The notes beneath the pieces were generated by a model. The model saw only the letters and a list, made by a program, of their open reading frames with translations. It ran no database searches and was not told the origin of the DNA. Below are positions 2,548 to 15,911 of a DNA stretch of 64,000 nucleotides, piece after piece (the stretch's first letter is position 1; each line of letters opens with the position of its first letter). The translations under genes and the position numbers were made by a program. The stretch lies in contig CBDBEV010000001.1 of the NCBI GenBank assembly GCA_965204535.1, positions 192,001 through 256,000 of the forward strand, in the 5' to 3' direction. The stretch is from a bacterium (GTDB lineage Bacteria > UBA8248).

Positions 2548-3145
2548 GCTTTGTCCTCCAAGCTGAAAACTCTTCTTTTTCAGTTATATATCTGTATTTT
2601 TCTATTATCGTCAAAAGTTCATTGTAACAAATTCCGCCCCTGTTTGCGCGGCCGGGCGGAACGATTCCCGCTTGTCTGCGCTCAAGGCCGGCGCTGGGGG
2701 CGAATGCGGGCTTTTGCGGGCAAATGCAGGGGCGCCTGAAAAACTTTTTTTACCCCTGAATCTTAGTGCGAGACGCTCAGATTTAATTGATAACCCTTTT
2801 GATTACAATTATTTATCTGTACATTATTTTTCAGAAATTTATCGAAAAACCCCGTGAATTTATCGTATTTTTCAGTAATTCCGCGCGCGCGAAGCGCCGG
2901 ATCCGTTCGCCGGCCGAACCCGGGCCGCCGGGTCCGTCTGCTTTGCCCTGTGAAAGTCCATCCTGCCCGAGCCCATCGGAACTCCTCCCGTTCGCGCGCC
3001 CGATTCTGCCCGGCGCGGGCGCAGGCCCGGTAACGCCAACTGCGGGGAAATGCGGGTGCAGACCCGGCTCGCCTCTCTCTCGACTTGAAAACCACCCCCC
3101 TAACCCCCTTAACAGGGGGTAAAAACAAAAAAACCCTTCCGACGA

Positions 3146-3317
3146 GAGGTCGTTGAAAAAGCCCCCCGACGAGGGAAAATTTGTTTGTGTGTAGGGGTCG
3201 CATACATGCGACCCTGCTTTTTTCACCTACTGCAAGGGCCGCATGTATGCGGCCCCTACACTCCCTTCGGCAAGTCGGAATCCCGTTGCCGTTATTGCAG
3301 GGTTTTTCAACGACCCC
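3146..3317. mobile_element. MITE-like element carrying a GTAG palindrome pair
   Basis: Ends GAGGTCGTTGAAAAA / TTTTTCAACGACCCC (14/15 inverted). Internal TGTAGGGGTCGCATACATGCGACCC...GGGCCGCATGTATGCGGCCCCTACA at 3190-3260. Confidence 0.65.
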
Positions 3318-3498
3318 GACAAGGGGGTTGGGGGTTACTACCCCGGCACAGAGGTGTCGAAAAAGCCCACACAGGGCCCTGCAATTGGAGGGTTTGTACG
3401 GACAGGTCGTGACCTGTACTTGCGAAGTGGAACCACGGGGATCGACATATTCGATACGGGCGGACACCCGGGTCCGCCCCTGCGAAACGACGCGCCGC

Positions 3499-4296
3499 TC
3501 ACCCCCTGCCCGCGATCATCTCCCAGACGTAGCTGAAGAGGAACAGCGCCGAAGCCGCCACGACGACGCAGGGACCTGCGGGCGCGTCCCATTCGAGCGA
3601 CGCCCAGAGGCCGGCCGCGACGGAGACGACCCCCGCCAGAACGGCGAGCGCCGCCATCTGCTCGGGTGTTTTGGAGAACCGCCGCGCCGCCGCCGGCGGT
3701 ATGATGAGCATCGAGATGATGAGCAGAATCCCGATCAGCTTCATGGCGACGGCGATGATGAAGGCGATCAGGATCATGAAGACGAGTTTCACGGCGAAGG
3801 TCGGGACCCCCTCGGCGCTCGCCAGTTCCTCGTTCACCGTGACGGCGAGAAGCCCCCGCCACAGCCACGCGAGCACGCCCAGCGCCGCCGCTCCGCCGAG
3901 ATATATCCACCACAAATCAAGCGCCCCGACCGCCAGGATGTCCCCGAAGAGATAGCCCATCAGGTCCACCCGGATCGTCTCCAGCAAGCTGACGGCGATG
4001 AAGCCCACCGCAAGCGCCATGTGGGCCAAGATGCCGAGCAGCGTGTCGGTGGAGAGTGTTTTCCGGCTCTGCAGAAAGACCAGGAGGATCGTGAGGCTCA
4101 TGCAGGAGATGAGGATGCCGAGCCGCAAGTCGATCCCGAAGGCGAAGCCTATCGCCACGCCGAGGAGCGCCGTGTGGGCCATGGAACTTCCAAAGTAGGC
4201 CATCTTGCGCCAGACGATGAAACAACCCACCGGGCCCGTCACCAGGGCGACGCCCACCCCGCCCATGAGCCCCCGGAACATGAAATCCTCCATCAC
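3499..4296 (-). CDS. znuB: Zinc ABC transporter permease
   Basis: GCFIVWRKMAYFGSSMAH, YLFGDIL, IIPPAAAR motifs; in operon with znuC and zur. Confidence 0.92.
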   Translation of the reverse strand: MMEDFMFRGLMGGVGVALVTGPVGCFIVWRKMAYFGSSMAHTALLGVAIGFAFGIDLRLGILISCMSLTILLVFLQSRKTLSTDTLLGILAHMALAVGFIAVSLLETIRVDLMGYLFGDILAVGALDLWWIYLGGAAALGVLAWLWRGLLAVTVNEELASAEGVPTFAVKLVFMILIAFIIAVAMKLIGILLIISMLIIPPAAARRFSKTPEQMAALAVLAGVVSVAAGLWASLEWDAPAGPCVVVAASALFLFSYVWEMIAGRG

Positions 4297-4308: not shown

Positions 4309-4599
4309 GGGGTTGTGAAAATCCCTGCAATGCCGGGTTCCCCGTCATTCCGGCCTTGGCCGGAATGACGAGCAAAAACACACCTTCCTTGAGTTTCATT
4401 TTCACTCCCCCCTTGAGGGGGAGTGAATTCCTTTCTCACCGGTCGGGTTCAACCCCCCCTACCCCCCCTTGTCAGGGGGGCAAGAAAAAGCAAAACCCCT
4501 CTACCGGCAGTGCGCGCCGCCTTTTTATACCCCCCTGACAAGGGGGGGTAGGGGGGGTTGCCTTTGTCCCCTGTTAAGAGGAACTTTCTCAACGGCCCC
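4309..4599. mobile_element. Composite MITE-like element between znuC and znuB
   Basis: Ends GGGGTTGTGAAAA / TTTCTCAACGGCCCC. Contains a GTCATTCCGGC hairpin, a TCACTCCCCCCTTGAGGGGGAGTGA palindrome and a 31-bp perfect inverted repeat (4450-4480 / 4530-4560). Confidence 0.65.
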
Positions 4600-5380
4600 C
4601 GTGGGAGTGCCGGGCTTCTTCGACCTCGACGGGGAGAATCTCTCCATCCGGACCGTGAACGTGGTCGTGCTTGTGGGTGTAGACGGCGAGGCTCTCGGCC
4701 GCATGCTTGCCGAACAGGGCGAGGTATTCGGGGTTTTTGCTCACGGCTTCGGGATGCCCCGTGCAGCAGATGTGCCTGTTGAGGCACACCACGCGGTCGG
4801 TGAACGCCATGACGAGGTGGAGGTCGTGCGAGATCAGGATGACGCCGCAGCCCCTGTCGTCCCTGATCTTCGCGATCAGGCGGTAGAGTTCGCTCTGCCC
4901 GTTGACGTCCACGTTCTGGATGGGCTCGTCGAGAACGAGCAGTTCGGGGTCTCGCAGCAGGGCGCGGGCGAGCAGCACGCGCTGGCGCTCTCCGCCGGAG
5001 AGGCTCTGGACGGGATGATCCAGCAGGTCTCCGGCGCCGACTTCCTCGAGGCTCTCCTCCATCTCCTTAGGCGAAGGCTTCTGCGTGAGGCGCAGCAATC
5101 TGCGCACGGTCAGCGGGAGCGAGTGGTCCACCTCGAAGGACTGGGGCAGGTAGCCGACCGAGAGTCCCTCTTTCCGGCGGACTTCTCCCGAATCGGGCTT
5201 GAGCAGGCCGAGCAGCACGCGGACGAGCGTGGTCTTGCCCGCGCCGTTCGGCCCGATGAGAGTGAGGATTTCAGCCGCTGAAATGTCGAGGCCCACGTTG
5301 TGGAGTATCGTCGTTTCGCCGATTCGGAGATGGAGGTTCGCGGCGGTGACGAGAGAGCGCCGCGCGTCATTTATCATCAT
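4589..5380 (-). CDS. znuC: Zinc ABC transporter ATP-binding protein
   Basis: Walker A GPNGAGKT, LSGGERQR, LDEP, C-terminal CLNRHICCTGHP and HKHDHVH. Confidence 0.93.
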   Translation of the reverse strand: MMINDARRSLVTAANLHLRIGETTILHNVGLDISAAEILTLIGPNGAGKTTLVRVLLGLLKPDSGEVRRKEGLSVGYLPQSFEVDHSLPLTVRRLLRLTQKPSPKEMEESLEEVGAGDLLDHPVQSLSGGERQRVLLARALLRDPELLVLDEPIQNVDVNGQSELYRLIAKIRDDRGCGVILISHDLHLVMAFTDRVVCLNRHICCTGHPEAVSKNPEYLALFGKHAAESLAVYTHKHDHVHGPDGEILPVEVEEARHSHGGR

Positions 5381-5855
5381 GACACTCCTTGCACCTGCCG
5401 CTGATTTCCATGACGGGCGTCTCCACCAGAAAACCGGCCCGGGTGGCGCTCGCCTCGATGGCCTCGCCGATTTCCTCGCTGTGCGTCTCGGCCACGGTTC
5501 CGCAGTCGCGGCAGATGAAGAACTGCGCCTTGTGGGCGTTCCCCGGTGTGGCGCAGCCCACGAACGCCTTTTGACTCTCGATGCGGTGGATGAGGCCGTG
5601 CTTCAGGAGGAAATCCAGCGCCCGGTAGACCGTGGGCGGGGCGCTTCGCCCTCCGTTCTCGTTCATACGCTCGAGCACGTCGTAGGCGCCCATGGGCGTA
5701 TGGCTCTCCCAGATGATCTCCAGCACCCGCCTCCTGAGCGGCGTGAGCCTCGCACCTCGCTCCCTGCAAAGCGCTTCGGCTTGTTCCAGGGCGCTCTCGA
5801 CGCAGGCCCCGTGGTCGCGATCCCTGCCGGGAGAATTCTTTTTCATCGATGTCAT
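5367..5855 (-). CDS. zur: Fur-family zinc uptake regulator
   Basis: RLTPLRRRVLE, PPTVYRALDFL, CRDC and CKEC; adjacent to znuABC. Confidence 0.9.
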   Translation of the reverse strand: MTSMKKNSPGRDRDHGACVESALEQAEALCRERGARLTPLRRRVLEIIWESHTPMGAYDVLERMNENGGRSAPPTVYRALDFLLKHGLIHRIESQKAFVGCATPGNAHKAQFFICRDCGTVAETHSEEIGEAIEASATRAGFLVETPVMEISGRCKECHDDK

Positions 5856-5865
5856 CTAAAGTTCC

Positions 5866-5899
5866 TTGACGAGCAAAATAGTAATGTTATATTATAACA
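5866..5899. promoter_or_regulatory. Zur box overlapping the znuA promoter
   Basis: Perfect 7-1-7 palindrome TGTTATA-T-TATAACA at 5885-5899, matching the proteobacterial Zur box, between divergent zur and znuA. TTGACG (-35) at 5866 puts the -10 region inside the box. Confidence 0.88.
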
Positions 5900-5946: not shown

Positions 5947-7122
5947 ATGAATAGGATCGAATCCATGAAATATATGTTGTTCACTGCGGCCCTGACAATG
6001 ACGCTTATTGCGCGCCTGGCCGCCCCCGCATCGGCCGCGCCCAAGGTGGTGGCCTCCATCAAGCCGCTTCATTCGCTGGTCTCGGGCGTCATGAAGGGGG
6101 TCGGCGAACCTTATCTGCTGATAAAAGGCGCCGCTTCGCCGCATACGTTTTCGCTCAAACCCTCCGACGCCAGGGAGATCGAGCGGGCGCGCGTGATTTT
6201 CTGGGTGGGCGAGTCGCTCGCCCCGAGCCTCGAGCGGCCCCTCGAAGTTCTGCCGAAACGGGCGGAGGTCGTCGCCATGGCGGAGATAAAGGGTCTGAAG
6301 CTGTTGAAGCTCAGGGAAGGCGGCTTGTGGGAAGGGCACGACGATCATCACGGTGAGGACGAAAAAGGCGGCCACCACGACGAACATAAGCGCGGCATGG
6401 CCAAAAAAGACGACCATCACCACGATGAGGACAAACACGGCAAAGGCAAAGATGACCACCACAAGCATGAGCACGAAAAAGCCAAAGACGATCACCATGA
6501 TGATCGCAAACACGCTATGGCCAAAGACAAGCACCACGATGAACATAAACACGAGAAAGCCAAGGATGATCACCACGGCGAGAAGGCCGGGCATCATCAC
6601 AGCGATCTCGACGTTCACGTCTGGCTCGACCCCATGAACGCCAAGAAGTGGGTGCATGAAATCACGCATGAGCTCGAAGAGGCGGATCCTGCGAACAGCG
6701 AAAAATACGAGGCGAACGAAAAGAGGCTTATGGCTCGATTGGACGCCCTGCACGAGGAATTGAAAGGCACGCTCGCGCCCCTGAAAGGCGCGCCCTACAT
6801 CGTCTTTCACGATGCGTATCAATACTATGAGAAACGCTACGGGCTGAACGCCATCGGTTCGGTGACCATCTCGCCCGAGAACAAGCCGGGCGCGGCGCGC
6901 CTCGTCGAGATTCGCAAGAAGGTCAGGGACACGAAATCTATCTGCGTGTTCTCCGAGCCGCAGTTCGAACCCAAACTGGTGAGGGTCGTCATGGAGGGAA
7001 CGGGTGCCGGAACCGGTGTGCTCGACCCCTTGGGCGCGGATATTCCCGCCGGTGAGGACGCGTATTTCACCCTCCTGCGCAACATGGCGAAATCGCTCAA
7101 TACGTGTCTTTCGCGGAAATAA
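5947..7122 (+). CDS. znuA: Zinc ABC transporter substrate-binding protein with a long His-rich loop
   Basis: Signal peptide, VVASIKPLHSLV, SPHTFSLKPSD, HVWLDP, FHDAYQY, FSEPQF. Start may be at 5965. Confidence 0.93.
   Translation: MNRIESMKYMLFTAALTMTLIARLAAPASAAPKVVASIKPLHSLVSGVMKGVGEPYLLIKGAASPHTFSLKPSDAREIERARVIFWVGESLAPSLERPLEVLPKRAEVVAMAEIKGLKLLKLREGGLWEGHDDHHGEDEKGGHHDEHKRGMAKKDDHHHDEDKHGKGKDDHHKHEHEKAKDDHHDDRKHAMAKDKHHDEHKHEKAKDDHHGEKAGHHHSDLDVHVWLDPMNAKKWVHEITHELEEADPANSEKYEANEKRLMARLDALHEELKGTLAPLKGAPYIVFHDAYQYYEKRYGLNAIGSVTISPENKPGAARLVEIRKKVRDTKSICVFSEPQFEPKLVRVVMEGTGAGTGVLDPLGADIPAGEDAYFTLLRNMAKSLNTCLSRK
7045..7122 (+). repeat. Left copy of the znuA 3'-end direct repeat
   Basis: CCCGCCGGTGAGGACGCGTATTTCACCCTC (7045-7074) is identical to 14317-14346; similarity continues to the stop codon. 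Confidence 0.9.
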
Positions 7123-7362
7123 TTTGAGGCGGCGCTTCCCGGGGATATGAACCAGCCCGCTCTATTCCCCCCGCATATCCCCGGGAGCCGCCCGCTATTT
7201 TCGTAGCGGCGAACGGAACCGAAGGGAGTTTCGATGGTTCTGTAGCCGGACAGGCGCAGGAGTCTGTCCGGGCACCTGTGTGTGGTCGGTGAAGCAAGCG
7301 AGCCGGTCCAGCGCTTCATGGCGCATCGTGAACGGGAAATCTGAAAGGGAAAGGAGAAATCG

Positions 7363-8499
7363 GTGAAGGCGAGAGTTTTGTTATTGGCCGCCGCGGCCGC
7401 GCTTTTCTGGCACGCGCCCGCCCTGGCTCAACAGTCCGTCGAGGAACGCCTCCTCAACATGGAAAAGCGCATCAGGCAGTTGGAAGAGCGCGTCTCCGCG
7501 CAGGATAAGGTAATTGCCGAGAAAGACAAGCAAATAGCCAGGCTCACCGGTGGAGACAAGTGGTTCGAAGCCGTGGAAATCGGTGGCGTCATAGATCTCA
7601 GAGGAATCGTGACCAGCCCCCCCGAGGGAGATAACGAAACAGATTTGGTCGTGGACTCGCTCGAAATCGGCATTGGCGCCCAGGTGAGCGATTGGGTAAA
7701 CGCAGAGGTCGTGCTCCTCTGGGAACAGGGCGAGGGTCCCGTGGACGTCGATACCGCGACGGTGACGATAGGCCCGCCCGAGGGCGCATGGTCCATCACG
7801 GGTGGCCAGCTCTACGTTCCGTTCGGCGCCTTCGAGACGAACCTGATCTCCGACCCCCTGACGCTCGACATCGGCGAGACGAGACAGACCGCCTTCCAAC
7901 TCGACGCTTCGGCCGGCGCGCTGAGCGGGTCGGTATTCGTCTTCAAGGGCGACAACATGGAAGACGGCGACAACCTCATCCAGGGCTTCGGTTTCGCGGC
8001 GGGCTATTCGGTCGAGACGGACAGCTTCGAGCTTGGGCTGAATCTCTCCTACACCAACGACCTGGGTGATTCGGACGGCTTGGAGGTCGAAGGTGCGGAA
8101 GGCTACGACCGCGTTGCGGGCATTTCGGCGAGCGCGACCCTGACGATTGGAAGCGTCTCGGTGCTCGGCGAGTATCTGGGAGCGATGGATACGTTTGGCG
8201 CGGACTATGTTGCGTTCGGCGACTACGGCGCGAAACCATCCGCCTGGATGGTCGAGGCGGCCTACGGGTTCGAGTTGGCCGGCAAGGAGGCGACGCTGGC
8301 CGCCAGCTACCAGACGACGGATGAGGCGCTGGCGCTTGAGTTGCCGAAAAAACGCATGCTGGTCGGACTTTCGTCCGAGGTGATGGACGGGCTCTCTCTG
8401 GGCTTCGAGTGGGCGCGTGATACGGACTACGGCGCCGATGAAGGCGGAAGCGGCGAGCACACCGACAACTTCACCGTCCAGTTGGCCGCCGAATTTTAG
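7363..8499 (+). CDS. Outer-membrane beta-barrel porin, LbtU-like
   Basis: Signal peptide, N-terminal coiled coil, GQLYVPFGAFETNLISDPLTLDIGET motif, C-terminal Phe (QLAAEF). GTG start after AAGGAG. Confidence 0.75.
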   Translation: MKARVLLLAAAAALFWHAPALAQQSVEERLLNMEKRIRQLEERVSAQDKVIAEKDKQIARLTGGDKWFEAVEIGGVIDLRGIVTSPPEGDNETDLVVDSLEIGIGAQVSDWVNAEVVLLWEQGEGPVDVDTATVTIGPPEGAWSITGGQLYVPFGAFETNLISDPLTLDIGETRQTAFQLDASAGALSGSVFVFKGDNMEDGDNLIQGFGFAAGYSVETDSFELGLNLSYTNDLGDSDGLEVEGAEGYDRVAGISASATLTIGSVSVLGEYLGAMDTFGADYVAFGDYGAKPSAWMVEAAYGFELAGKEATLAASYQTTDEALALELPKKRMLVGLSSEVMDGLSLGFEWARDTDYGADEGGSGEHTDNFTVQLAAEF

Positions 8500-8672
8500 C
8501 CGGCGCCAGGGTACGGACAGACCTTGCGGAGAGGAGATTCCCCGCAATTCGGCGTGGGGCGGCAGCCGGTGTGCCCCGGCCGCACAAGCAGGGTGTGGTA
8601 TTCGCTGAAAAACAGGGATAGCAGGGTCATCATCCACCGTTTGAAAGACGCAATCCAGGAGGAACCTGAAGG

Positions 8673-9050
8673 ATGAACATCGCATACGTTTTCGCCACCG
8701 ACATGTCGGCGACCTACAAGCTGGGCACCATGATCCTGCCGCAACTCGAAGCCGGCAACCACGGGGTGAACGTCGTCGGCATGTTCTTCTTCGACGACAA
8801 CCTGTTCTGCCTGCGCGAGGGCGACGAGGTGGGCGAGCGACTGGCCAAGGTCGCCGCGGAGCAGAACATCCTCCTCATGGTCTGCGATCAGTGCGCCGTG
8901 CGGCGCAACCTCGCCGAGGGCACGTTCGAACAGTGCGGCTCCGGCGACGTCAAGGCGAAGGGCCTGGTGGCCGGTGTGGGCGCCGGTTGTTTCCCGCAGC
9001 TATACGCAGCGCTCGCCCCCGCCGCGCCCGACCTGGTCATCACCCTTTGA
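8673..9050 (+). CDS. DsrE-related protein, SaoD-like
   Basis: [43 protein letters not shown]-terminus; RBS GGAGG. Confidence 0.75.
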
Positions 9051-9070
9051 GTGAGGGAACCAAAGTGCCC

Positions 9071-10285
9071 ATGTCAGAGAGACTTCCCGTTACTGTCCTG
9101 TCCGGCTTTCTCGGTGCAGGCAAGACCACTCTTCTAAACAACGTGCTCAAAAACCGCGAGGGCATGCGCGTCGCGGTCATCGTCAACGATATGAGCGAGG
9201 TCAACATCGACGCGGCGCTCGTTGAGCGCGGCGGTGCGGAACTCTCGCGGACCGAGGAGAAACTGGTCGAGATGTCGAACGGCTGCATCTGCTGCACGCT
9301 GCGAGACGACCTGCTCGCTGAGGTCTCACGGCTCGCGCAGGAGAAACGCTTCGACTACCTGCTCATCGAGTCCACCGGGATATCCGAGCCCATTCCCGTC
9401 GCGCAGACCTTCACCTTCGAGGACGAGAACGGTGTGAGCCTGGGGCAGGTATCGCGCCTCGACACGATGGTCACGATCGTGGACGCGGAGAGCTTCCTGC
9501 GGGACTACAACGCCGCCAACGCGCTCCAGGACCGCGGTGAGTCGCTGGGCGAAGATGATCACCGGACGGTGACCGACCTGCTCATCGACCAGATCGAGTT
9601 CGCCGACGTCATCGTGCTCAACAAGATCGATCTCGTGAGCAACGATCAGGCTCTCGAGGTCAAGGCTATCGTGAAAGCGCTCAACCCCGGCGCGAAGCTC
9701 CTCATGGCGACGCACGGACAGGTCCCGCTCGAATGCGTGCTCGACACGGGCCTGTTCGACTACGAGAAGGCGGAGAGCTCCGCCGGCTGGATTCGAGAGC
9801 TTCAGGGTGAGCACACGCCGGAGACCGAGGAGTACGGGATATCGAGCTTCACCTATCGGACGGCGCAGCCCTTCGACGCCGAGAAGCTGTGGGCGTTCCT
9901 GCACGACGACGAGAACTGGAGCGGCGTGCTCCGCTCAAAGGGCCTCTTCTGGGTCGCCGCTGACCACCGGATCGCCTACGAGTGGGCTCTGGCCGGCGGC
10001 GTCAGCGACGTGAAACCCGCCGGGATGTGGTGGGCGGCCGTGCCTCGCGAACACTGGGAGCACCCCGAGGATGAGCGACCTGACCAGGAGCCGGACTGGC
10101 ATCCCCGCTTCGGCGATCGCGTGCAGCAACTCGTCTTCATCGGCCAGCAGATGCACGAGGCGGCGATACGCGCCCGCCTCGACGCGTGCCTGCTCGACGA
10201 GCGCCTCGCCTCCGCTGGCAGCAAGGTCTGGGCAGAGCTCCGGAACCCGTTTCCGGAGCTTCTTATGGCCGAGGAGCCGGCATGA
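9071..10285 (+). CDS. COG0523/CobW-family zinc metallochaperone GTPase (ZigA/YciC-like)
   Basis: [51 protein letters not shown], CobW_C LVFIG. Confidence 0.92.
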
Positions 10286-10532
10286 CCGGAACTGCCTCGT
10301 CCGTTTTGGCGAAAGGGGCACCGGCATCTCGTGGCGCCTTTCGGTCATCCGTACTTCACGTGCGCACGTCCTGCAGGGCGCCCGGCTCTCCGCGTGAGCC
10401 GCACGAGAGAGTCGAGCCGGATTCAAATCTATCAAGAGCTTCGCGCGACGTTCCATGAGAGCCCATTGGGCCATCACGCGGACGTTCGACGTCCAAATTC
10501 CAATACCCGCACCTCTGCTCGAGGAGAACTAG

Positions 10533-11879
10533 ATGAACACGCCGCGAAAAGTACCTGTTTCCATCCTCACCGGTTTCCTCGGCTCTGGCAAGACGACCCT
10601 GCTCAACCGGATATTGAGTGAAGAGCACGGCAAGCGCATTGCCGTGATCGAGAACGAGTACGGAGAGGTCGGCATCGATCAGGCGCTCGTCATCAACGCT
10701 GACGAAGAGATCTTCGAGATGGCGAACGGCTGCATCTGTTGCACGGTGCGCGGAGACCTGATTCGCGTGCTCGGCAATCTCATGAAGCGCCGCGACAAGT
10801 TCGACTATGTGTTGGTGGAGACCACAGGGCTCGCCGATCCCGGCCCGGTCGCTCAGACCTTCTTCATGGACGACGAGATTCGCGCGGAGTTCGCGCTTGA
10901 CGGGATCGTCACGCTCGTCGATGCAGCCCACATCGAGCAACAGCTCGGCCGAAGCGACGAAAGCACCGAGCAAATCGCGTTCGCGGACGTCCTGTTGCTC
11001 AACAAGACGGACCTCGTCAACGGCGAGGCGCTCGACAGGCTCGAAGCCCGGCTCCGGGACATGAACCGAATGGCGCGCGTCGTGCGCAGCGAGCGGGCGG
11101 ACGTTTCGGTCGACACGGTCCTCAACCTCGGCGCCTTCGACCTGGACCAGGTGCTCGAGCGTCGTCCCACCTTCCTCGAGCCGGAGTATCCGTTCGAATG
11201 GACCGGAGTCTATTCGCTCGATACCGGCCGCTACGAACTCGACCTCGCCGATGGACCTGATCCGGCGATGTCGCTCGTCGTCGTGTCCGACCAGGGCACG
11301 GATGACGCTGCCCTCCGTGAGGGTGCGGAGTGGTGTGTGCGGCAGTACGCCGAACCTGCGGAGCTCATTCGCCCGGGGGAAGAGATTCCCCTCGGAAAGC
11401 ATGTGAATCTCCAGCTCGATTCCCCGGGGCGCAAGTCGTTCTTCCTGGAGGTCGACACGCAGGTGCGGGTTGCCCTCTACGCCGAGCACGGCGCGGAGGA
11501 GTTCGATCTCCAACTGAGGAACGCGGAAGGAGCGACAATCAGGCAGGAGGTGGAGCGCACCTGGGTCGCACAGCACGAGCACGACGACGAGGTGGGCTCG
11601 ATCGCGATCGAGAGGGACGGCGACGTCGACCCCAAAAAGCTCGACGCCTGGATTGGCGAACTGCTCCGTGAGCGCGGGGTGGACATCTTCCGAATGAAGG
11701 GCTTCATCAGCCTCGCGGGTGAGTCGCGTCGCTTCGTCTTCCAGGGGGTTCACATGCTCTTTGACGGCCAGCCGGATCGTCCATGGGGAGACTCGCCCCG
11801 GCGCAATCAGCTCGTCTTCATCGGCCGCGACCTCGATGAACAGAGCATGCGGCAGGGATTCGAGTCATGCCTGATTTGA
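10533..11879 (+). CDS. Second COG0523/CobW-family GTPase with an inserted domain
   Basis: GFLGSGKTT, ENEYGE, NGCICCTVR, ETTGLADP, NKTD; ~130 aa insert before CobW_C (FRMKG...QGVH...LVFIGR). Confidence 0.9.
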   Translation: MNTPRKVPVSILTGFLGSGKTTLLNRILSEEHGKRIAVIENEYGEVGIDQALVINADEEIFEMANGCICCTVRGDLIRVLGNLMKRRDKFDYVLVETTGLADPGPVAQTFFMDDEIRAEFALDGIVTLVDAAHIEQQLGRSDESTEQIAFADVLLLNKTDLVNGEALDRLEARLRDMNRMARVVRSERADVSVDTVLNLGAFDLDQVLERRPTFLEPEYPFEWTGVYSLDTGRYELDLADGPDPAMSLVVVSDQGTDDAALREGAEWCVRQYAEPAELIRPGEEIPLGKHVNLQLDSPGRKSFFLEVDTQVRVALYAEHGAEEFDLQLRNAEGATIRQEVERTWVAQHEHDDEVGSIAIERDGDVDPKKLDAWIGELLRERGVDIFRMKGFISLAGESRRFVFQGVHMLFDGQPDRPWGDSPRRNQLVFIGRDLDEQSMRQGFESCLI

Positions 11880-11900
11880 ATATCGACAGGAGGAGCCTGC

Positions 11901-13031
11901 ATGAGCGGCACCGAGAGCAGTGAAATCTTCTATGACGCAGTGATCGTCGGCGCCGGCGCCGCAGGCGTGGGCGCCGCGGTGGCTCTCAGGCATGCCGGCA
12001 TCGAGAACTTCGTAGTTCTCGATCGTCACACGGTCGGCGCATCGTTCGCCTCATGGCCGGCCGAGACTCGCTTTATCACGCCCTCGTACCCGACCAATTC
12101 GATTGGCATGCTCGATTTGAACTCGATCGCGATTGGAACTTCACCCGCGTTCAGTTTGGAGGTTGAGCATCCGACGGGTGAAGAGTACGCGATATATTTG
12201 CGTGCAGTCGCACATTTCTTTGAGTTACCCGTACGCCAGGATACCGACGTGATGCAGATAGCAAAGGTTGGCGACGGCTTTCGCATCGATACGGCCGACG
12301 GGACCTTGCAAGCCAAGCACGTCATCTGGGCCGCCGGCGAGTTCCAATACCCGCGCTTGAATGGGTTTGTCGGCAGCCAATTGTGTCGTCACACCGCGAC
12401 CATCGCCAGTTATGGAGAGCTTGACGGTGACGACTTCATCGTTGTGGGTGGCTACGAAAGTGGTGTCGACGTGGCCTACCACCTGGCGTACCGCGACAAA
12501 CGAGTGCGGTTGTTCGACAAGGATTGCCCGTGGGAGGAAGAGAGTTCCGATCCCAGTGTCGCGCTTTCCCCGTTTACGCTCGAACGGATGCGTGAAGACT
12601 GGTTTGTCGAGCAAGTGAAACTGTTTCCGCACACACCTATCGAATCGGTCACTCGCGTGGACGCCATGTATGAAGTCACGGCTCGAGACGGGCATCGGTT
12701 TGAAACCCGCGTGCCGCCGCTATGGGCGGGCGGATTCGAGGGGAGTCACAAGTTGGTCGCGGATTTGTTTGAACGACGCGACGATGGCTTTCCGCTTCTG
12801 AGCGAACACGATGAATCAACCATCGTACCGGGCGTATTTCTCTGCGGCCCCGCAGTTCGCCATGACAATTCCGTCTTCTGTTTTATCTACAAGTATCGAC
12901 AACGATTCGCCGTTGTCGCCAAAGCCATTGCGACCTCGTTGGGGCTGCCGGCGGAAGAGTTGGAAGAGTACCGCAAGTGGGGCATGTATCTCGATGACCT
13001 CTCCTATTGCGGGGAGGAGTGCGTATGTTGA
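11901..13031 (+). CDS. NAD(P)/FAD-dependent oxidoreductase (CzcO-like) with a Cys-rich C-terminus
   Basis: VGAGAAG FAD motif, WAAGEFQYP, VGGYESG, FCFIYKYRQRF, terminal DDLSYCGEECVC. Confidence 0.82.
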   Translation: MSGTESSEIFYDAVIVGAGAAGVGAAVALRHAGIENFVVLDRHTVGASFASWPAETRFITPSYPTNSIGMLDLNSIAIGTSPAFSLEVEHPTGEEYAIYLRAVAHFFELPVRQDTDVMQIAKVGDGFRIDTADGTLQAKHVIWAAGEFQYPRLNGFVGSQLCRHTATIASYGELDGDDFIVVGGYESGVDVAYHLAYRDKRVRLFDKDCPWEEESSDPSVALSPFTLERMREDWFVEQVKLFPHTPIESVTRVDAMYEVTARDGHRFETRVPPLWAGGFEGSHKLVADLFERRDDGFPLLSEHDESTIVPGVFLCGPAVRHDNSVFCFIYKYRQRFAVVAKAIATSLGLPAEELEEYRKWGMYLDDLSYCGEECVC

Positions 13032-13252
13032 CGGGAAACGACGAAGGGGCCGCCGCGTCTGGTGCGAGGCGAAGCCGACTGGCCAGGGTGCGGAGCATCG
13101 AATGGCTCGGACAAACGGTCGCCAGCGTTTGCTGGATTGGCAGCATGCTGACTTACGGGATCAGGTCCGGTGGGGATTGGTTGCAGTTGTTTGCTGCATC
13201 CGCATGGCTGTTGGCCAACATCGCAGCGATTGCGACTGCCAAGGCTGATTGA
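13025..13252 (+). CDS. Small membrane protein (about two TM helices)
   Basis: ATG overlaps the oxidoreductase end, RBS GGAGGAG; hydrophobic EWLGQTVASVCWIGSMLTYG and DWLQLFAASAWLLANIAAI. Confidence 0.65.
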   Translation: MLTGNDEGAAASGARRSRLARVRSIEWLGQTVASVCWIGSMLTYGIRSGGDWLQLFAASAWLLANIAAIATAKAD

Positions 13253-13253
13253 G

Positions 13254-14300
13254 ATGTCGGCAGCACTTCAAAATGTCGACGCCCCAAAGGGTGTTCTTCG
13301 CCGGGGCTGGTCTGCGGCGGTTGGCGACTACGCTATCGCCGGTGGCTGGAGCCTGCGTGGTGAGGCGCTGATGGTCGGTGACGCTGCGGGTGGCGTTTAC
13401 GCATTCGACGGCAAGTCTGGCGCGACCACCTGGGAGCGGCGCGGGGTTCATGAAGGCGGTGTGCTCGCGGTGGCGGTCCACCCAAGCGGAACCACGTTCG
13501 CTACGGCTGGCCAGGACGGACGAGTCCTTATCTGGGGTGTCGCCGAAGGTCAGGTACAACAGGCTATCGACATCGGGGGCGATTGGGTGGAGAACGTGGC
13601 GTGGTCGCCGGACGGCCAGTGGTTGGCGGCCTCCTGCTCCCGGCAGGTTCGCGCGTATGGCGTGGACGGCGCGGAGGTTTGGCGATCTGATGATCATCCC
13701 AGCACGGTCAGCGCGATCGCCTGGTCGAGCGCAGGGGAGCTGGCGACGGCCTGTTACGGTCGAGTGACGTTCTTCGACGCGCCCACCGGCGAGCTTCGCC
13801 AGATGCTGGAGTGGCGGGGATCCTTGGTGTCGATGGCGCTGAGCCCGGGCGGGGATATCGTGGCCTGCGGCAGCCAGGACAACACGGTGCACTTCTGGCG
13901 TCGCTCCACGGAGCGGGACGCCATGATGTCAGGATATTCCGCCAAGCCGTCGGCACTGGCTTTCGATGATACCGGCACCCTTTTGGCCACCGGCGGAGGG
14001 GAGGCGGTGACGGTCTGGAGCTTCGAGGGAGATGGTCCCGAAGGCACGCGGCCCGGTGTTCTGGAGTTTCATGTTCAACCCGTCACGACGCTTGCCTTCG
14101 CTCGCCGCGGGATGCGCCTGGCATCGGCGGCACGGGATGGCGCCGTGGTGGTGTGGTCGCTTGAGAGGGATGGAAATGGCCGTCCGATCGGGACCGCGGT
14201 TTTGGCGGGCATCGGGGCGAAACTGTACTGGCGGCCGGACGGGCGCGCGCTTGCCGCGCTCGACGCGCAGGGTGGCGTGACGGCTTGGCGGATAGGATGA
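13254..14300 (+). CDS. WD40-repeat beta-propeller protein
   Basis: Repeated blades: VAVHPSGTTFATAGQDGRVLIW, VAWSPDGQWLA, LSPGGDIVACGSQDNTVHFW, LASAARDGAVVVW. Confidence 0.88.
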   Translation: MSAALQNVDAPKGVLRRGWSAAVGDYAIAGGWSLRGEALMVGDAAGGVYAFDGKSGATTWERRGVHEGGVLAVAVHPSGTTFATAGQDGRVLIWGVAEGQVQQAIDIGGDWVENVAWSPDGQWLAASCSRQVRAYGVDGAEVWRSDDHPSTVSAIAWSSAGELATACYGRVTFFDAPTGELRQMLEWRGSLVSMALSPGGDIVACGSQDNTVHFWRRSTERDAMMSGYSAKPSALAFDDTGTLLATGGGEAVTVWSFEGDGPEGTRPGVLEFHVQPVTTLAFARRGMRLASAARDGAVVVWSLERDGNGRPIGTAVLAGIGAKLYWRPDGRALAALDAQGGVTAWRIG

Positions 14301-14316
14301 ACAAATGCCCGAATTG

Positions 14317-14392
14317 CCCGCCGGTGAGGACGCGTATTTCACCCTCTTGCGCAAACATGGCGAAATCATTAAGGATGTGCCTTTCAGGGTAA
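14317..14392 (+). pseudogene. Duplicated, frameshifted znuA C-terminal remnant (right direct repeat)
   Basis: Encodes PAGEDAYFTLLR, then +1 nt, then NMAKSLRMCLSG*, versus znuA PAGEDAYFTLLRNMAKSLNTCLSRK*. Confidence 0.85.
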
Positions 14393-14439
14393 TGATGCGG
14401 GAATGACGGGCAAAAGCGCGTTCCCCTCGCCTTGAAAAC

Positions 14440-14554
14440 CAACCCCCCCTACCCCCCCTTGTCAGGGGGGTATTAAAAGGCGACGCCCGCCGCCGCCGGT
14501 AGAGGGGTTTTTGTTTTTTCTTACCCCCCTGACAAGGGGGGGCAGGGGGGGTTG
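14440..14554. repeat. CAACCCCCCCTACCCCCCCTTGTCAGGGGGG inverted-repeat element
   Basis: Same arms as 4450-4560, 20114-20259 and 48100-48211. Confidence 0.85.
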
Positions 14555-14609: not shown

Positions 14610-15911
14610 TTACAACTCGATCACGTCCATCGCCTCGGGCGTGAGGACTCGCGGGCCGTTCTCTTCCACGATCACCTGGGGGCCGAAGACGATGAACATC
14701 CTGTCCTCGTGTGCGGCCTTGATTTCAACGGCGAGGGACATGCCCGCCTCGACCTCGAAATCCGCCAGAAAGCCGTAGCGCTCACCCGCGAGTTCGCGCC
14801 ATTCGGGGTTCTCGGCCAGGCTTCCCTCCACGAAAGGCTCGCGCCAGGAGAATTTCCGGGGAATCTCGCCCGCGCATATCGTCGTCATGGGCGGCTCGAT
14901 GCCGTCGATCCCCACCCCGTGCACCTGGGGAATCTCGTGATAGTAGCCGCCCCTGAGCACCGCCTCGTTAGACGCGCGGTCCACCTCGCTCCACGGCGTG
15001 CCGGGCTTGAGCGCGTCGAGCGCGGCGTGGAGACTCTCGCGCACCGCCTCGCGCAGGGGTTTGTATTCCGCATCCATCGGGCCCAGCGACATCGAGGTGT
15101 GCGGATGGCTCCAGTAGCCCCCGTAGCGCGCGTAATAGCCGATGCACATCATGTCGCCCGTCCGCAGAATCCTGTCCGTAGGCCTTCTGTTCACCGGATA
15201 GCCCTTGCCCGAACACATGATGAGCCAGCTGTCCCGGCCCGGCTCCGCCCCCGCGCGCAGGCTCGCGCCGAACAGCGCCGCGTACACCTCGCTCTCCCGC
15301 ACGCCCGGGCGACAGCAGCCGAGCACGGCGTCTATCTCGATGTTCACCATCTCGGCGGCTTTTTCGAGCATCGCTATTTCTTCTGCGCTCTTTATCATGC
15401 GCAGGCGCGTGAGGATGTCCGAAGCGTCGGCGAACTCGGCATCCGGCAGAAGGCGCTTCAGGTTCTGATACGTCATGTAGGGGATCGATCCCTCAGAACC
15501 GTATCCCCCGCCGATCAGGCCGACGACGCCGATTCGCCCGCTCTCGTAACCCAGCTCCTTGACGGCGTCTGAGGCCACGATGCTCACCTTCCCCTCGTGC
15601 CCCCGGTAGCGCACCCCCTCGAAGCACGATTCGGTGTACCACTTGCCCCAGTTCTGCAGGAGCCAGAAGGTGACGGGCGCGCCCTTCCGGGGGAACACCA
15701 TGCTGCGCTCCCCGTAATCGCCCCCGTCGAGCCAGCGGGTGTCGCCGCTTCCGTTCGAGCCGCGCCCGATGACGATGAGGCAGTCGAGGCCGCGCGCATC
15801 CATGGCGGCGCGCACCGCGTTCCACCGCCTGTCGCGCTCCTCAGCAGAAAACGCAGCCGCCGCATCACCTGCCCGGCCGTCTCTGGGGAAAAACCTGGGG
15901 TCCGTTACCAT
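14610..15911 (-). CDS. M24/creatinase-fold hydrolase (Xaa-Pro peptidase family)
   Basis: Creatinase_N-like start (FSAEERDRRWNAVRAAM), RMIKSAEEI, RPGVRESEV, HGVGID; metal ligands partly substituted. Confidence 0.8.
   Translation of the reverse strand: MVTDPRFFPRDGRAGDAAAAFSAEERDRRWNAVRAAMDARGLDCLIVIGRGSNGSGDTRWLDGGDYGERSMVFPRKGAPVTFWLLQNWGKWYTESCFEGVRYRGHEGKVSIVASDAVKELGYESGRIGVVGLIGGGYGSEGSIPYMTYQNLKRLLPDAEFADASDILTRLRMIKSAEEIAMLEKAAEMVNIEIDAVLGCCRPGVRESEVYAALFGASLRAGAEPGRDSWLIMCSGKGYPVNRRPTDRILRTGDMMCIGYYARYGGYWSHPHTSMSLGPMDAEYKPLREAVRESLHAALDALKPGTPWSEVDRASNEAVLRGGYYHEIPQVHGVGIDGIEPPMTTICAGEIPRKFSWREPFVEGSLAENPEWRELAGERYGFLADFEVEAGMSLAVEIKAAHEDRMFIVFGPQVIVEENGPRVLTPEAMDVIEL

What the first reader, a model, noticed from the sequence alone, without database searches (positions are those of the whole stretch)
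7045..14392. Cassette bracketed by a duplicated znuA 3' end (att-like integration into znuA)
Seen: 30 bp identical at 7045-7074 and 14317-14346, with diverged similarity through the stop codon. The distal copy has a +1 frameshift and a different tail (KSLRMCLSG* vs KSLNTCLSRK*). No integrase lies within. Inference: a ~7.27 kb element carrying its own znuA end recombined into the resident znuA, replaced its C-terminus and came under the host Zur promoter. The divergent tails argue for a foreign allele rather than a recent tandem duplication.
Basis: partly seen in the sequence, partly recalled or inferred. Interest (0 to 1): 0.75.

Follow-up and report, generated by a model that had tools for sequence, protein, structure and literature searches.

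The report
Fossil znuA end, not attachment site
The repeat is real, but the far copy is a decayed 80-base scrap of a zinc-transporter gene, likely left behind when a larger zinc-starvation gene block was spliced into an older transporter locus by ordinary recombination, so it is probably a scar of a known process and not the docking site of a mobile element.

Summary
Observation confirmed: 30 bp identical (7045-7074 = 14317-14346), 80 bp at 84%, +1 A, spacing 7,272 bp, two copies in the genome. The att-like reading fails. The intact znuA is one lineage on both sides of 7045. Its downstream leader is the genus-wide native one (22 of 28 other znuA ends), and none of 28 is followed by the 14397+ sequence. 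The empty site (13 relatives) lacks the whole znuBC-zur-znuA block, and the unit shared sideways between species is znuB to WD40, Zur box included. The far copy begins at a 5-bp microhomology with the tail of a COG0523-oxidoreductase-WD40 module that is near-identical in other phyla. Relative G013 shows a fuller version: a crossover inside zur, then incoming znuA and cassette, then 370 bp of the displaced resident znuA. That is the signature of homology-facilitated illegitimate recombination. The best tree puts the 80-bp scrap with that displaced lineage, but other origins are not rejected. The cargo is a known Zur-type module (Haas 2009); the scan noted the GTPase-WD40 pair before on other DNA. 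Ordinary process, clear fossil record.

The parts
2700..3055 (.). Dispersed AT-rich non-coding repeat (core at 2838-2865) at the left edge of the zinc block; limits approximate
   Evidence: 56 copies of the core in the genome at <=4 mismatches; within 1 kb of the left edge of 8 of 23 znu blocks with flank held
3499..4296 (-). znuB, zinc ABC permease (lineage 1)
   Evidence: NCBIfam NF007089, 267 bits against cut-off 284; PF00950; tree
4589..5380 (-). znuC, zinc ABC ATPase (lineage 1)
   Evidence: NF007090 above cut-off; tree
5367..5855 (-). zur-like Fur-family repressor; holds the crossover point seen in relative G013 (window-equivalent 5727-5765)
   Evidence: NF008646 best hit, below cut-off; PF01475; informative sites
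5885..5899 (.). Perfect palindrome of the Zur-box type overlapping a predicted sigma-70 promoter (5866-5895)
   Evidence: Only site in the genome at <=1 mismatch; promoter scan; the Zur consensus itself is recalled
5947..7122 (+). Intact znuA (lineage 1), His-rich, not chimeric at 7045
   Evidence: NF007091 above cut-off, PF01297; identity bins; tree
7045..7123 (+). Near copy of the repeat: the native 3' end of znuA
7125..7194 (+). Stem-loop after the znuA stop, conserved behind most znuA genes of the genus
   Evidence: z -3.6
7363..8499 (+). LbtU-family outer-membrane porin
   Evidence: NF033652 above cut-off; found in 8 of 23 genus genomes
8673..9050 (+). SaoD/DsrE-family gene; 8607-9046 is a 94% duplicate of a resident copy at G000:C2:2640046-2640485
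   Evidence: NF040913 above cut-off
9071..10285 (+). ZigA-type COG0523 zinc metallochaperone GTPase
   Evidence: NF038288 623.7 bits, cut-off 600
10533..11879 (+). Second COG0523 GTPase; start of the 3.8-kb module shared with other phyla (similarity begins at about 10484)
   Evidence: PF02492 + PF07683
11901..13031 (+). FAD-dependent oxidoreductase
13025..13252 (+). Small protein of no family (predicted membrane protein by eye), tied to the oxidoreductase
   Evidence: no Pfam or NCBIfam hit; beside the oxidoreductase in 79 of 80 loci
13254..14300 (+). WD40 beta-propeller
   Evidence: PF00400; 6 of 23 genus genomes
14301..14321 (+). Non-coding tail of the foreign module; its last 5 bases (14317-14321) are the microhomology shared with znuA
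   Evidence: the same tail continues further in Binatia-labelled loci L136, L145, L153 and in G003, G013
14317..14396 (+). Far copy: decayed 80-bp znuA 3' relic with a +1 A
   Evidence: the same junction with 30 bp of relic in L130
14433..14566 (.). REP-like inverted-repeat pair closing the block, before the M24 peptidase gene (14610-15911, -)
   Evidence: 204 exact copies of a 16-mer of it in the genome

Best explanation
The far repeat is a decayed 3' scrap of a znuA gene, joined to the end of a foreign gene module at a 5-base microhomology, and it is likely what remains of an older resident znuA displaced when a block carrying its own znuA, promoter and cargo was inserted by homologous recombination at one end and an illegitimate join at the other. 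Shown: the repeat; the microhomology; the single lineage of the intact gene; the G013 arrangement (resident znuB, znuC and 3' zur; crossover in zur; incoming promoter, znuA and cassette; 370 bp of resident znuA); sideways sharing of znuB-WD40 between species; near-identical cargo in other phyla. Inferred: that the window's scrap has the same origin as G013's fragment, either trimmed from such a fragment by a microhomology deletion of about 345 bp or made by a separate event of the same kind; that znuB, znuC and zur were then or later replaced by donor-type alleles; that transformation delivered the DNA (comEC and dprA are present). Function, inferred: one Zur-repressed transcript from znuA through WD40 for zinc starvation (uptake, porin, two metallochaperone GTPases). 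The scrap itself is predicted to do nothing.
For: G013: znuC and the 3' part of zur are 95-99% identical to G020's second locus; informative sites switch between 5727 and 5765; znuA and its leader are donor-type; the fragment after WD40 is 95.4% to G020's copy over 368 bp and at most 85.4% to all others. The scrap groups with that lineage in the best tree, 99/90, 8 differences against 11-28 for the others. The window's znuA is 88-99% identical to G002 and G011 on the 5' side of 7045 and 96-100% on the 3' side. The donor tail and znuA share 5 bases at the join. Of the six WD40 carriers, G011 and G012 end alike, and G000, G002, G003 and G013 each end differently within about 40 bp of the WD40 stop. 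Four-fold-site divergence to G011/G012 is 2-13% across znuB-WD40 against 15-24% for rpoB, acs, M24 and thrC. comEC and dprA are over cut-off. The mechanism is described in PMC6382021 and proposed for natural gene displacement in PMC5361080 (passages read).
Against: The scrap is only 80 bp: AU tests do not reject placing it with lineage 1 (p 0.23), with the window's own gene (p 0.24) or with the core of lineage 2 (p 0.32). In the window znuB, znuC and zur are all lineage 1, so no left crossover is visible here. The closest relative with two znuA genes at this same site, G016, has a lineage-2 locus there, which suits rival 1. G013 sits at another chromosomal site and its oxidoreductase and WD40 alleles group with Binatia-labelled loci, not with the window's, so its junction may be a separate event. 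The process is reported as rare in experiments (PMC5361080 passage).
Confidence: 0.5

Rival explanations
1. Deletion scar in a tandem array: the ancestor had znu locus 1, the cassette and a second complete znuBC-zur-znuA locus at this site. A deletion at the same 5-bp microhomology removed the second locus up to its last 80 bp, and later deletions at repeats removed its downstream genes.
For: G016, sister to G000+G002 on the rpoB tree, has znuA, then znuBC-zur-znuA, then an SO_0444 permease and hflC/hflK at this same acs-M24 site; G005 and G014 show the same tandem elsewhere. Microhomology deletions occur in the cassette: G002 lost lbtU and saoD at a short shared stretch. Placement with the lineage-2 core is not rejected (p 0.32). 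L130's 30-bp scrap has G at the first diagnostic site, as several lineage-2 and some lineage-1 ends do.
Against: 11 differences from G016's second znuA against 8 from G020's other copy; sisterhood with G016's copy alone scores p 0.041; no close homolog of the permease or hflC/hflK is left in G000 (best 25-32% identity).
Confidence: 0.27
2. Join point of an old tandem duplication of 7045-14321 (for example amplification under zinc starvation); the second copy was later deleted except for its first 80 bp, which then decayed.
For: The join has exactly the geometry of a duplication junction. Placement with lineage 1 is not rejected (p 0.23). G003 has a similar join from the module tail into a 29-38 bp piece of saoD, a gene upstream in the same cassette.
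Against: 13 differences from the window's own gene, 11 of them in the second half. G013's longer fragment is plainly from another lineage. The scrap is not followed by the znuA-lbtU leader.
Confidence: 0.13
3. One reading: a 7.27-kb element with its own znuA end integrated by an att-like single crossover in the 30-bp repeat, using a recombinase in trans, and replaced the C-terminus.
For: Direct repeats at a gene 3' end; diverged tails; 42 tyrosine-recombinase matches elsewhere in the genome.
Against: No lineage switch at 7045. The native leader follows the intact gene, and no znuA end is followed by 14397+ (0 of 28). The empty site lacks the whole znu block (13 relatives). Four of the other five WD40 carriers have no znuA repeat at all, and G013's begins about 290 bp earlier in the gene. 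The 30 bp are simply conserved coding sequence (6 of 29 ends identical).
Confidence: 0.05
4. Assembly artefact.
For: The genome is a metagenome bin with 5.26% contamination; the only run that bridges the junction may be its own source.
Against: The two copies differ at 13 of 80 columns; an independent record, L130, has the same junction with other substitutions; G002 is collinear on both sides.
Confidence: 0.02

Closest known systems
[quoted passage not shown]
   Same: A homologous anchor at one end, a short microhomology join at the other, foreign DNA added and part of the resident locus lost or left downstream; fully visible in G013.
   Different: Here it is read from genomes, not from transformation experiments; in the window itself only the illegitimate end is visible.
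Displacement of effector genes leaving orphan immunity genes in Vibrio cholerae T6SS clusters, and orphan 3' ends in rhs loci (PMC5361080, passages read)
   Same: An incoming module displaces the 5' part of a resident locus and leaves its 3' remainder behind the new genes.
   Different: The remainder here is a non-functional piece of a transporter gene, not a retained useful gene; the cargo is a nutrient-stress module.
Zur-linked COG0523 clusters, subfamily 1 (YciC/ZigA) and subfamily 5 with WD40 and znuABC (Haas et al. 2009, PMC2770081, passages read)
   Same: COG0523 GTPases clustered with a WD40 gene and znuABC behind a Zur-type site.
   Different: Adds an LbtU porin, a duplicated resident saoD and an oxidoreductase with a small partner gene; a mosaic of resident and foreign parts.
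Integrative elements that enter the 3' end of a protein gene, such as SGI1 at trmE (search listing and abstract starts only)
   Same: A direct repeat of a gene's 3' end brackets several kb of accessory genes.
   Different: No integrase, no conserved right end, no precise empty site, no chimeric target gene.

Membership tests
att-type integrative element in a gene 3' end | Integrase next to an att site | tested here: not met
   none of 42 PF00589 matches lies in the window; serine recombinases were not searched genome-wide
att-type integrative element in a gene 3' end | Direct repeats flank the unit | tested here: met
   30 bp identical, 80 bp at 84%; but absent in 4 of the 5 other WD40 carriers
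att-type integrative element in a gene 3' end | Empty site: target gene followed by the far flank | tested here: not met
   0 of 28 znuA ends reach 38/60 identity to 14397-14456, while 22 of 28 do to the near leader; 13 relatives have acs and M24 with no znu gene between
att-type integrative element in a gene 3' end | Target gene is host-type 5' and element-type 3' of the core | tested here: not met
att-type integrative element in a gene 3' end | Excised circle or excision joint | tested here: inconclusive
   none among the joints shown (15 shown, 108 not shown; none); contigs drop rare forms
HFIR-type insertion | Homologous crossover on one side | tested here: inconclusive
   met in G013 (switch at 5727-5765); not visible in the window, whose znuBC-zur are lineage 1 throughout
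HFIR-type insertion | Illegitimate join at a 3-10 bp microhomology on the other side | tested here: met
   5 shared bases at 14317-14321; size range from the PMC6382021 passage
HFIR-type insertion | Remainder belongs to the recipient's lineage, not the donor's | tested here: inconclusive
   met in G013 (95% against <=85%); favoured but not proven for the 80-bp scrap
HFIR-type insertion | RecA-dependent uptake by natural transformation | not testable with these tools
   comEC and dprA present, but the control shows both in 10 of 14 well-known genomes, so this is weak
Zur-regulated COG0523 cluster | COG0523 GTPase genes clustered with znuABC and WD40 | tested here: met
   description in PMC2770081
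Zur-regulated COG0523 cluster | Zur site upstream | tested here: met
   perfect palindrome at 5885-5899, unique in the genome at <=1 mismatch; consensus recalled, binding untested
Zur-regulated COG0523 cluster | Second GTPase falls in subfamily 5 by phylogeny | not tested
   only gene neighbourhood and Pfam domains were checked
Zur-regulated COG0523 cluster | Co-transcription and zinc-dependent repression | not testable with these tools
   no second Zur-type site in the cassette; one weak terminator-like hit inside lbtU, 5 found against 6.6 expected; no RNA run was laid

The most novel reading that the evidence does not exclude
In this genus the zinc-starvation operon is an integrase-free shuttle. 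It captures modules from other phyla and overwrites resident znu loci again and again by anchor-plus-microhomology recombination, leaving datable znuA scraps. It also lands preferentially beside a dispersed AT-rich repeat of about 330 bp that acts as its real docking site.
Probability: 0.25. Interest if true: 0.55.

Novelty: new member of a known kind. Interest (0 to 1): 0.3.

Why it matters
It removes a false att site: a gene-end repeat without an integrase can be the scar of gene replacement, and only relatives tell the two apart. G013 is an unusually clean natural record of homology-facilitated illegitimate recombination, with both joints readable. The cargo shows that a zinc-starvation module is traded between phyla at DNA identities of 87-95%, in organisms whose DNA turns up in sponge metagenomes, which points to zinc limitation as a shared pressure there. 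I found no paper in the library holding sponge + symbiont + COG0523 + zinc and one unrelated paper for znuA + horizontal + illegitimate recombination. None of this is a new mechanism.

Tried and rejected
Junction pattern in metagenome contigs: 0 matches. Junction DNA in 42 family genomes: no genome but G000 has the module tail joined directly to the short relic. Back-transfer into Binatia: L130 is Binatia-like on its left and genus-like from about the end of the second GTPase, relic and REP included. Its bin G058 has a second contig with a Binatia-type WD40 that stops near the switch point, and only that one copy of the REP was matched. I therefore treat L130 as a probable assembly chimera and use it only as a second record of the junction. 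Reads: only contigs were available. The 85% laying was swamped by other organisms' copies. Run X2 has contigs identical to znuA-lbtU and M24 but no cover at 14370-14445; a hole proves nothing. Depth of znuA-lbtU against M24 in X1 (55.7 against 29) is not a copy number. A link between the AT-rich repeat and tyrosine recombinases: only 4 of 56 copies lie within about 2.2 kb of one, near my rough chance estimate of 2-3, so rejected. RAYT-type transposase: one short partial PF01797 match only. Rfam: two matches far below gathering score. The relic has no notable fold (z +1.06). GC content does not mark the cassette except the oxidoreductase stretch. A G021 match running 12 bases past the relic's stop is a separate repeat insertion, not an empty site. 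In one search two G016 genes were translated from the wrong strand; redone. No protein folding or complex job was run, as the question is about DNA history.
Full report
Observation. The repeat is as described: 30 identical bases at 7045-7074 and 14317-14346, 80 columns at 83.75%, one extra A in the far copy, two copies in the assembly. Chance is excluded (about 1e-4 expected pairs). The genes between are an LbtU porin, a SaoD/DsrE gene, ZigA, a second COG0523 GTPase, an FAD oxidoreductase, a small unknown gene and a WD40 propeller. Upstream, on the other strand, lie zur, znuC and znuB. No integrase or transposase is among them, and none of 42 PF00589 matches falls in the window.

Relatives. 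The genus has 22 other genomes. znuA was found in 21 of 22, the WD40 gene in 5 of 22. All or part of the cassette follows znuA in G002, G003, G011, G012, G013 and G018 (G003, G012 and G018 are broken across contigs). Trees show three znuA lineages among the closer relatives: lineage 1 (cassette-linked), lineage 2 (followed by an SO_0444 permease and hflC/hflK) and lineage 3 (G020's second locus). Lineage 1 is one side of a branch at 99/94; lineage 2 is not a single clade. Part of the output was cut; I use its znuB, znuC and znuA 3' trees, which were shown.

Test of the att model. If an element had crossed over in the 30 bp, the intact gene would change lineage there. It does not: it is 88-99% identical to G002 and G011 before 7045 and 96-100% after, against 65-89% to lineage 3 before the repeat. 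The 60 bases after its stop match 22 of 28 other znuA ends at 38/60 or better, in all three lineages, whereas the 60 bases after the far copy match none at that level (best 36/60). The 30 bp are identical in 6 of 29 ends because they code for a conserved motif. The real empty site is larger: 13 relatives carry acs and the M24 gene with no znu gene between, and znu loci sit at many different chromosomal places in the genus. Four-fold-site divergence from G011 and G012 is 2-13% for every gene from znuB to WD40 but 15-24% for rpoB, acs, M24 and thrC. So the unit passed between those species includes the transporter, the regulator and its site. Within the G000/G002/G016/G018 clade the block mostly diverges about as much as rpoB, which fits inheritance at this site; G016's znuB, znuC and zur are lineage 2 and differ more.

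What the far junction is. The stretch from about 10484 to 14321 is shared with loci labelled Binatia, Thermodesulfobacteriota, Latescibacterota, Spirochaetia and Gammaproteobacteria, mostly at 87-95% DNA identity. The 80 best of 560 oxidoreductase relatives span nine named phyla. The oxidoreductase, small gene and WD40 have the least host-like codon use of the 16 window genes scored (16th, 0th and 27th percentile of a crude 2,225-ORF background). The saoD gene is a 94% copy of a resident gene. In those other loci the module's tail continues past the point where the window switches to znuA sequence, and tail and znuA share five bases exactly there. Carriers end differently: G002 goes from the tail into a REP, G011 and G012 into more tail-like and then unrelated DNA, G003 into a 29-38 bp piece of saoD, G013 into 370 bp of znuA. 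L130 has the window's junction with 30 bp of relic and the same REP. That contig is probably a chimera, but it still records the junction in a second lineage.

The telling relative. In G013, znuB groups with lineage 3, and znuC and the 3' part of zur are 95-99% identical to it. Diagnostic sites switch to lineage 1 between window positions 5727 and 5765, inside zur. The promoter region, znuA and cassette are lineage 1, and the fragment after WD40 is lineage 3 again, 95.4% over 368 bp. So a donor block was anchored by homology in zur and joined illegitimately into the resident znuA, leaving its 3' third behind. This matches homology-facilitated illegitimate recombination as described in PMC6382021 and PMC5361080 (matched passages read).

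Origin of the window's scrap. It is nearest to lineage 3 (8 differences; 11 or more to all others) and groups there at 99/90, but AU tests leave lineage 1 (p 0.23) and the lineage-2 core (p 0.32) open. The window shows no left crossover, and G016 has a lineage-2 locus at this very site, so deletion within a tandem array is a serious rival and an old duplication join is possible. All three readings agree on the point that matters: a microhomology join and a leftover, not an att core. Together they carry about 0.9.

Function. A perfect palindrome of the Zur-box type (consensus recalled) at 5885-5899 is the only such site in the genome at one mismatch or fewer and overlaps a predicted promoter. 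The cassette is therefore likely one zinc-starvation transcript behind znuA. Clusters of COG0523 with WD40 and znuABC behind Zur sites were described in 2009 (PMC2770081, matched passages read; supplements not opened, and they list the clusters). Earlier notes of this scan reported the GTPase-WD40 pair in other genomes. Runs labelled sponge metagenome hold 0.28-0.45 of the region's words, and the one such run laid has near-identical znuA pieces.

Side lead. An AT-rich repeat with 56 copies in the genome lies within 1 kb of the left edge of 8 of 23 znu blocks with flank held, about five independent sites, where about 1% would be expected from its density. It is also present at several matching empty sites. 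Whether it directs insertion or only marks unstable intergenic DNA is untested.

Verdict. A real feature, a mostly wrong first interpretation, a known kind of process. Interest 0.3. No paper in the library held the term sets in a relevant way, and none of the 15 listed mentions znuA; most subscription papers are outside that library.

Noticed in passing
window 2700-3055; 56 copies in G000: Dispersed AT-rich non-coding element of about 330 bp, flanked by a GC-rich 14-mer motif in direct or inverted order, with no Rfam match; sits at the left edge of 8 of 23 znu blocks, and G002 has about 40 kb of other DNA starting beside it.
   Followed up: partly
L034:847-10668 (G013): Complete replacement scar: lineage-3 znuBC and 3' zur, crossover in zur, lineage-1 znuA and cassette without zigA, then 370 bp of lineage-3 znuA.
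   Followed up: yes
L035, L036, L037 (G016, G014, G005): Tandem znuA followed by a second znuBC-zur-znuA; in G016 then an SO_0444 Cu/Zn transporter fused to an HflK-like domain, hflC and hflK, with the same downstream DNA in G014 and, as far as its contig goes, G005.
   Followed up: partly
G000 genome, e.g. C1:184106/185292, C2:346529/347709, C2:2957160/2958346: About a dozen near-identical pairs of adjacent tyrosine-recombinase genes among 42 PF00589 matches, suggesting an expanded multi-recombinase element.
   Followed up: no
L032:9145-10245 (G011): IS110-family transposase inserted in the second COG0523 gene.
   Followed up: partly
window 8607-9046 and G000:C2:2640046-2640485: saoD with its upstream 65 bp is duplicated at 94%; G003 has a 29-38 bp saoD piece after the WD40 tail, and Latescibacterota-labelled L140 has a saoD-end-like stretch before zigA, so saoD may have been an earlier anchor.
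   Followed up: partly
window 10282-10530: Spacer between the two GTPases; its first 200 bp are matched in several Binatia-labelled loci, and its end resembles the end of a small 102-aa gene of no NCBIfam family that is intact in L130 and present in G013.
   Followed up: partly
window 6340-6600: Long His/Asp/Lys-rich repeat loop in znuA that varies in length between relatives.
   Followed up: no
window 5885-5899: The only Zur-type palindrome in the genome at <=1 mismatch, so the whole predicted Zur regulon may sit in this one locus.
   Followed up: partly
L130 and L209 (G058): Binatia-labelled contig that switches to genus-type sequence near the end of the second GTPase; probably an assembly chimera in a public bin.
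   Followed up: yes
window 2656-3500: G000 lacks the aconitase-family gene pair that follows acs in most relatives at this site.
   Followed up: partly
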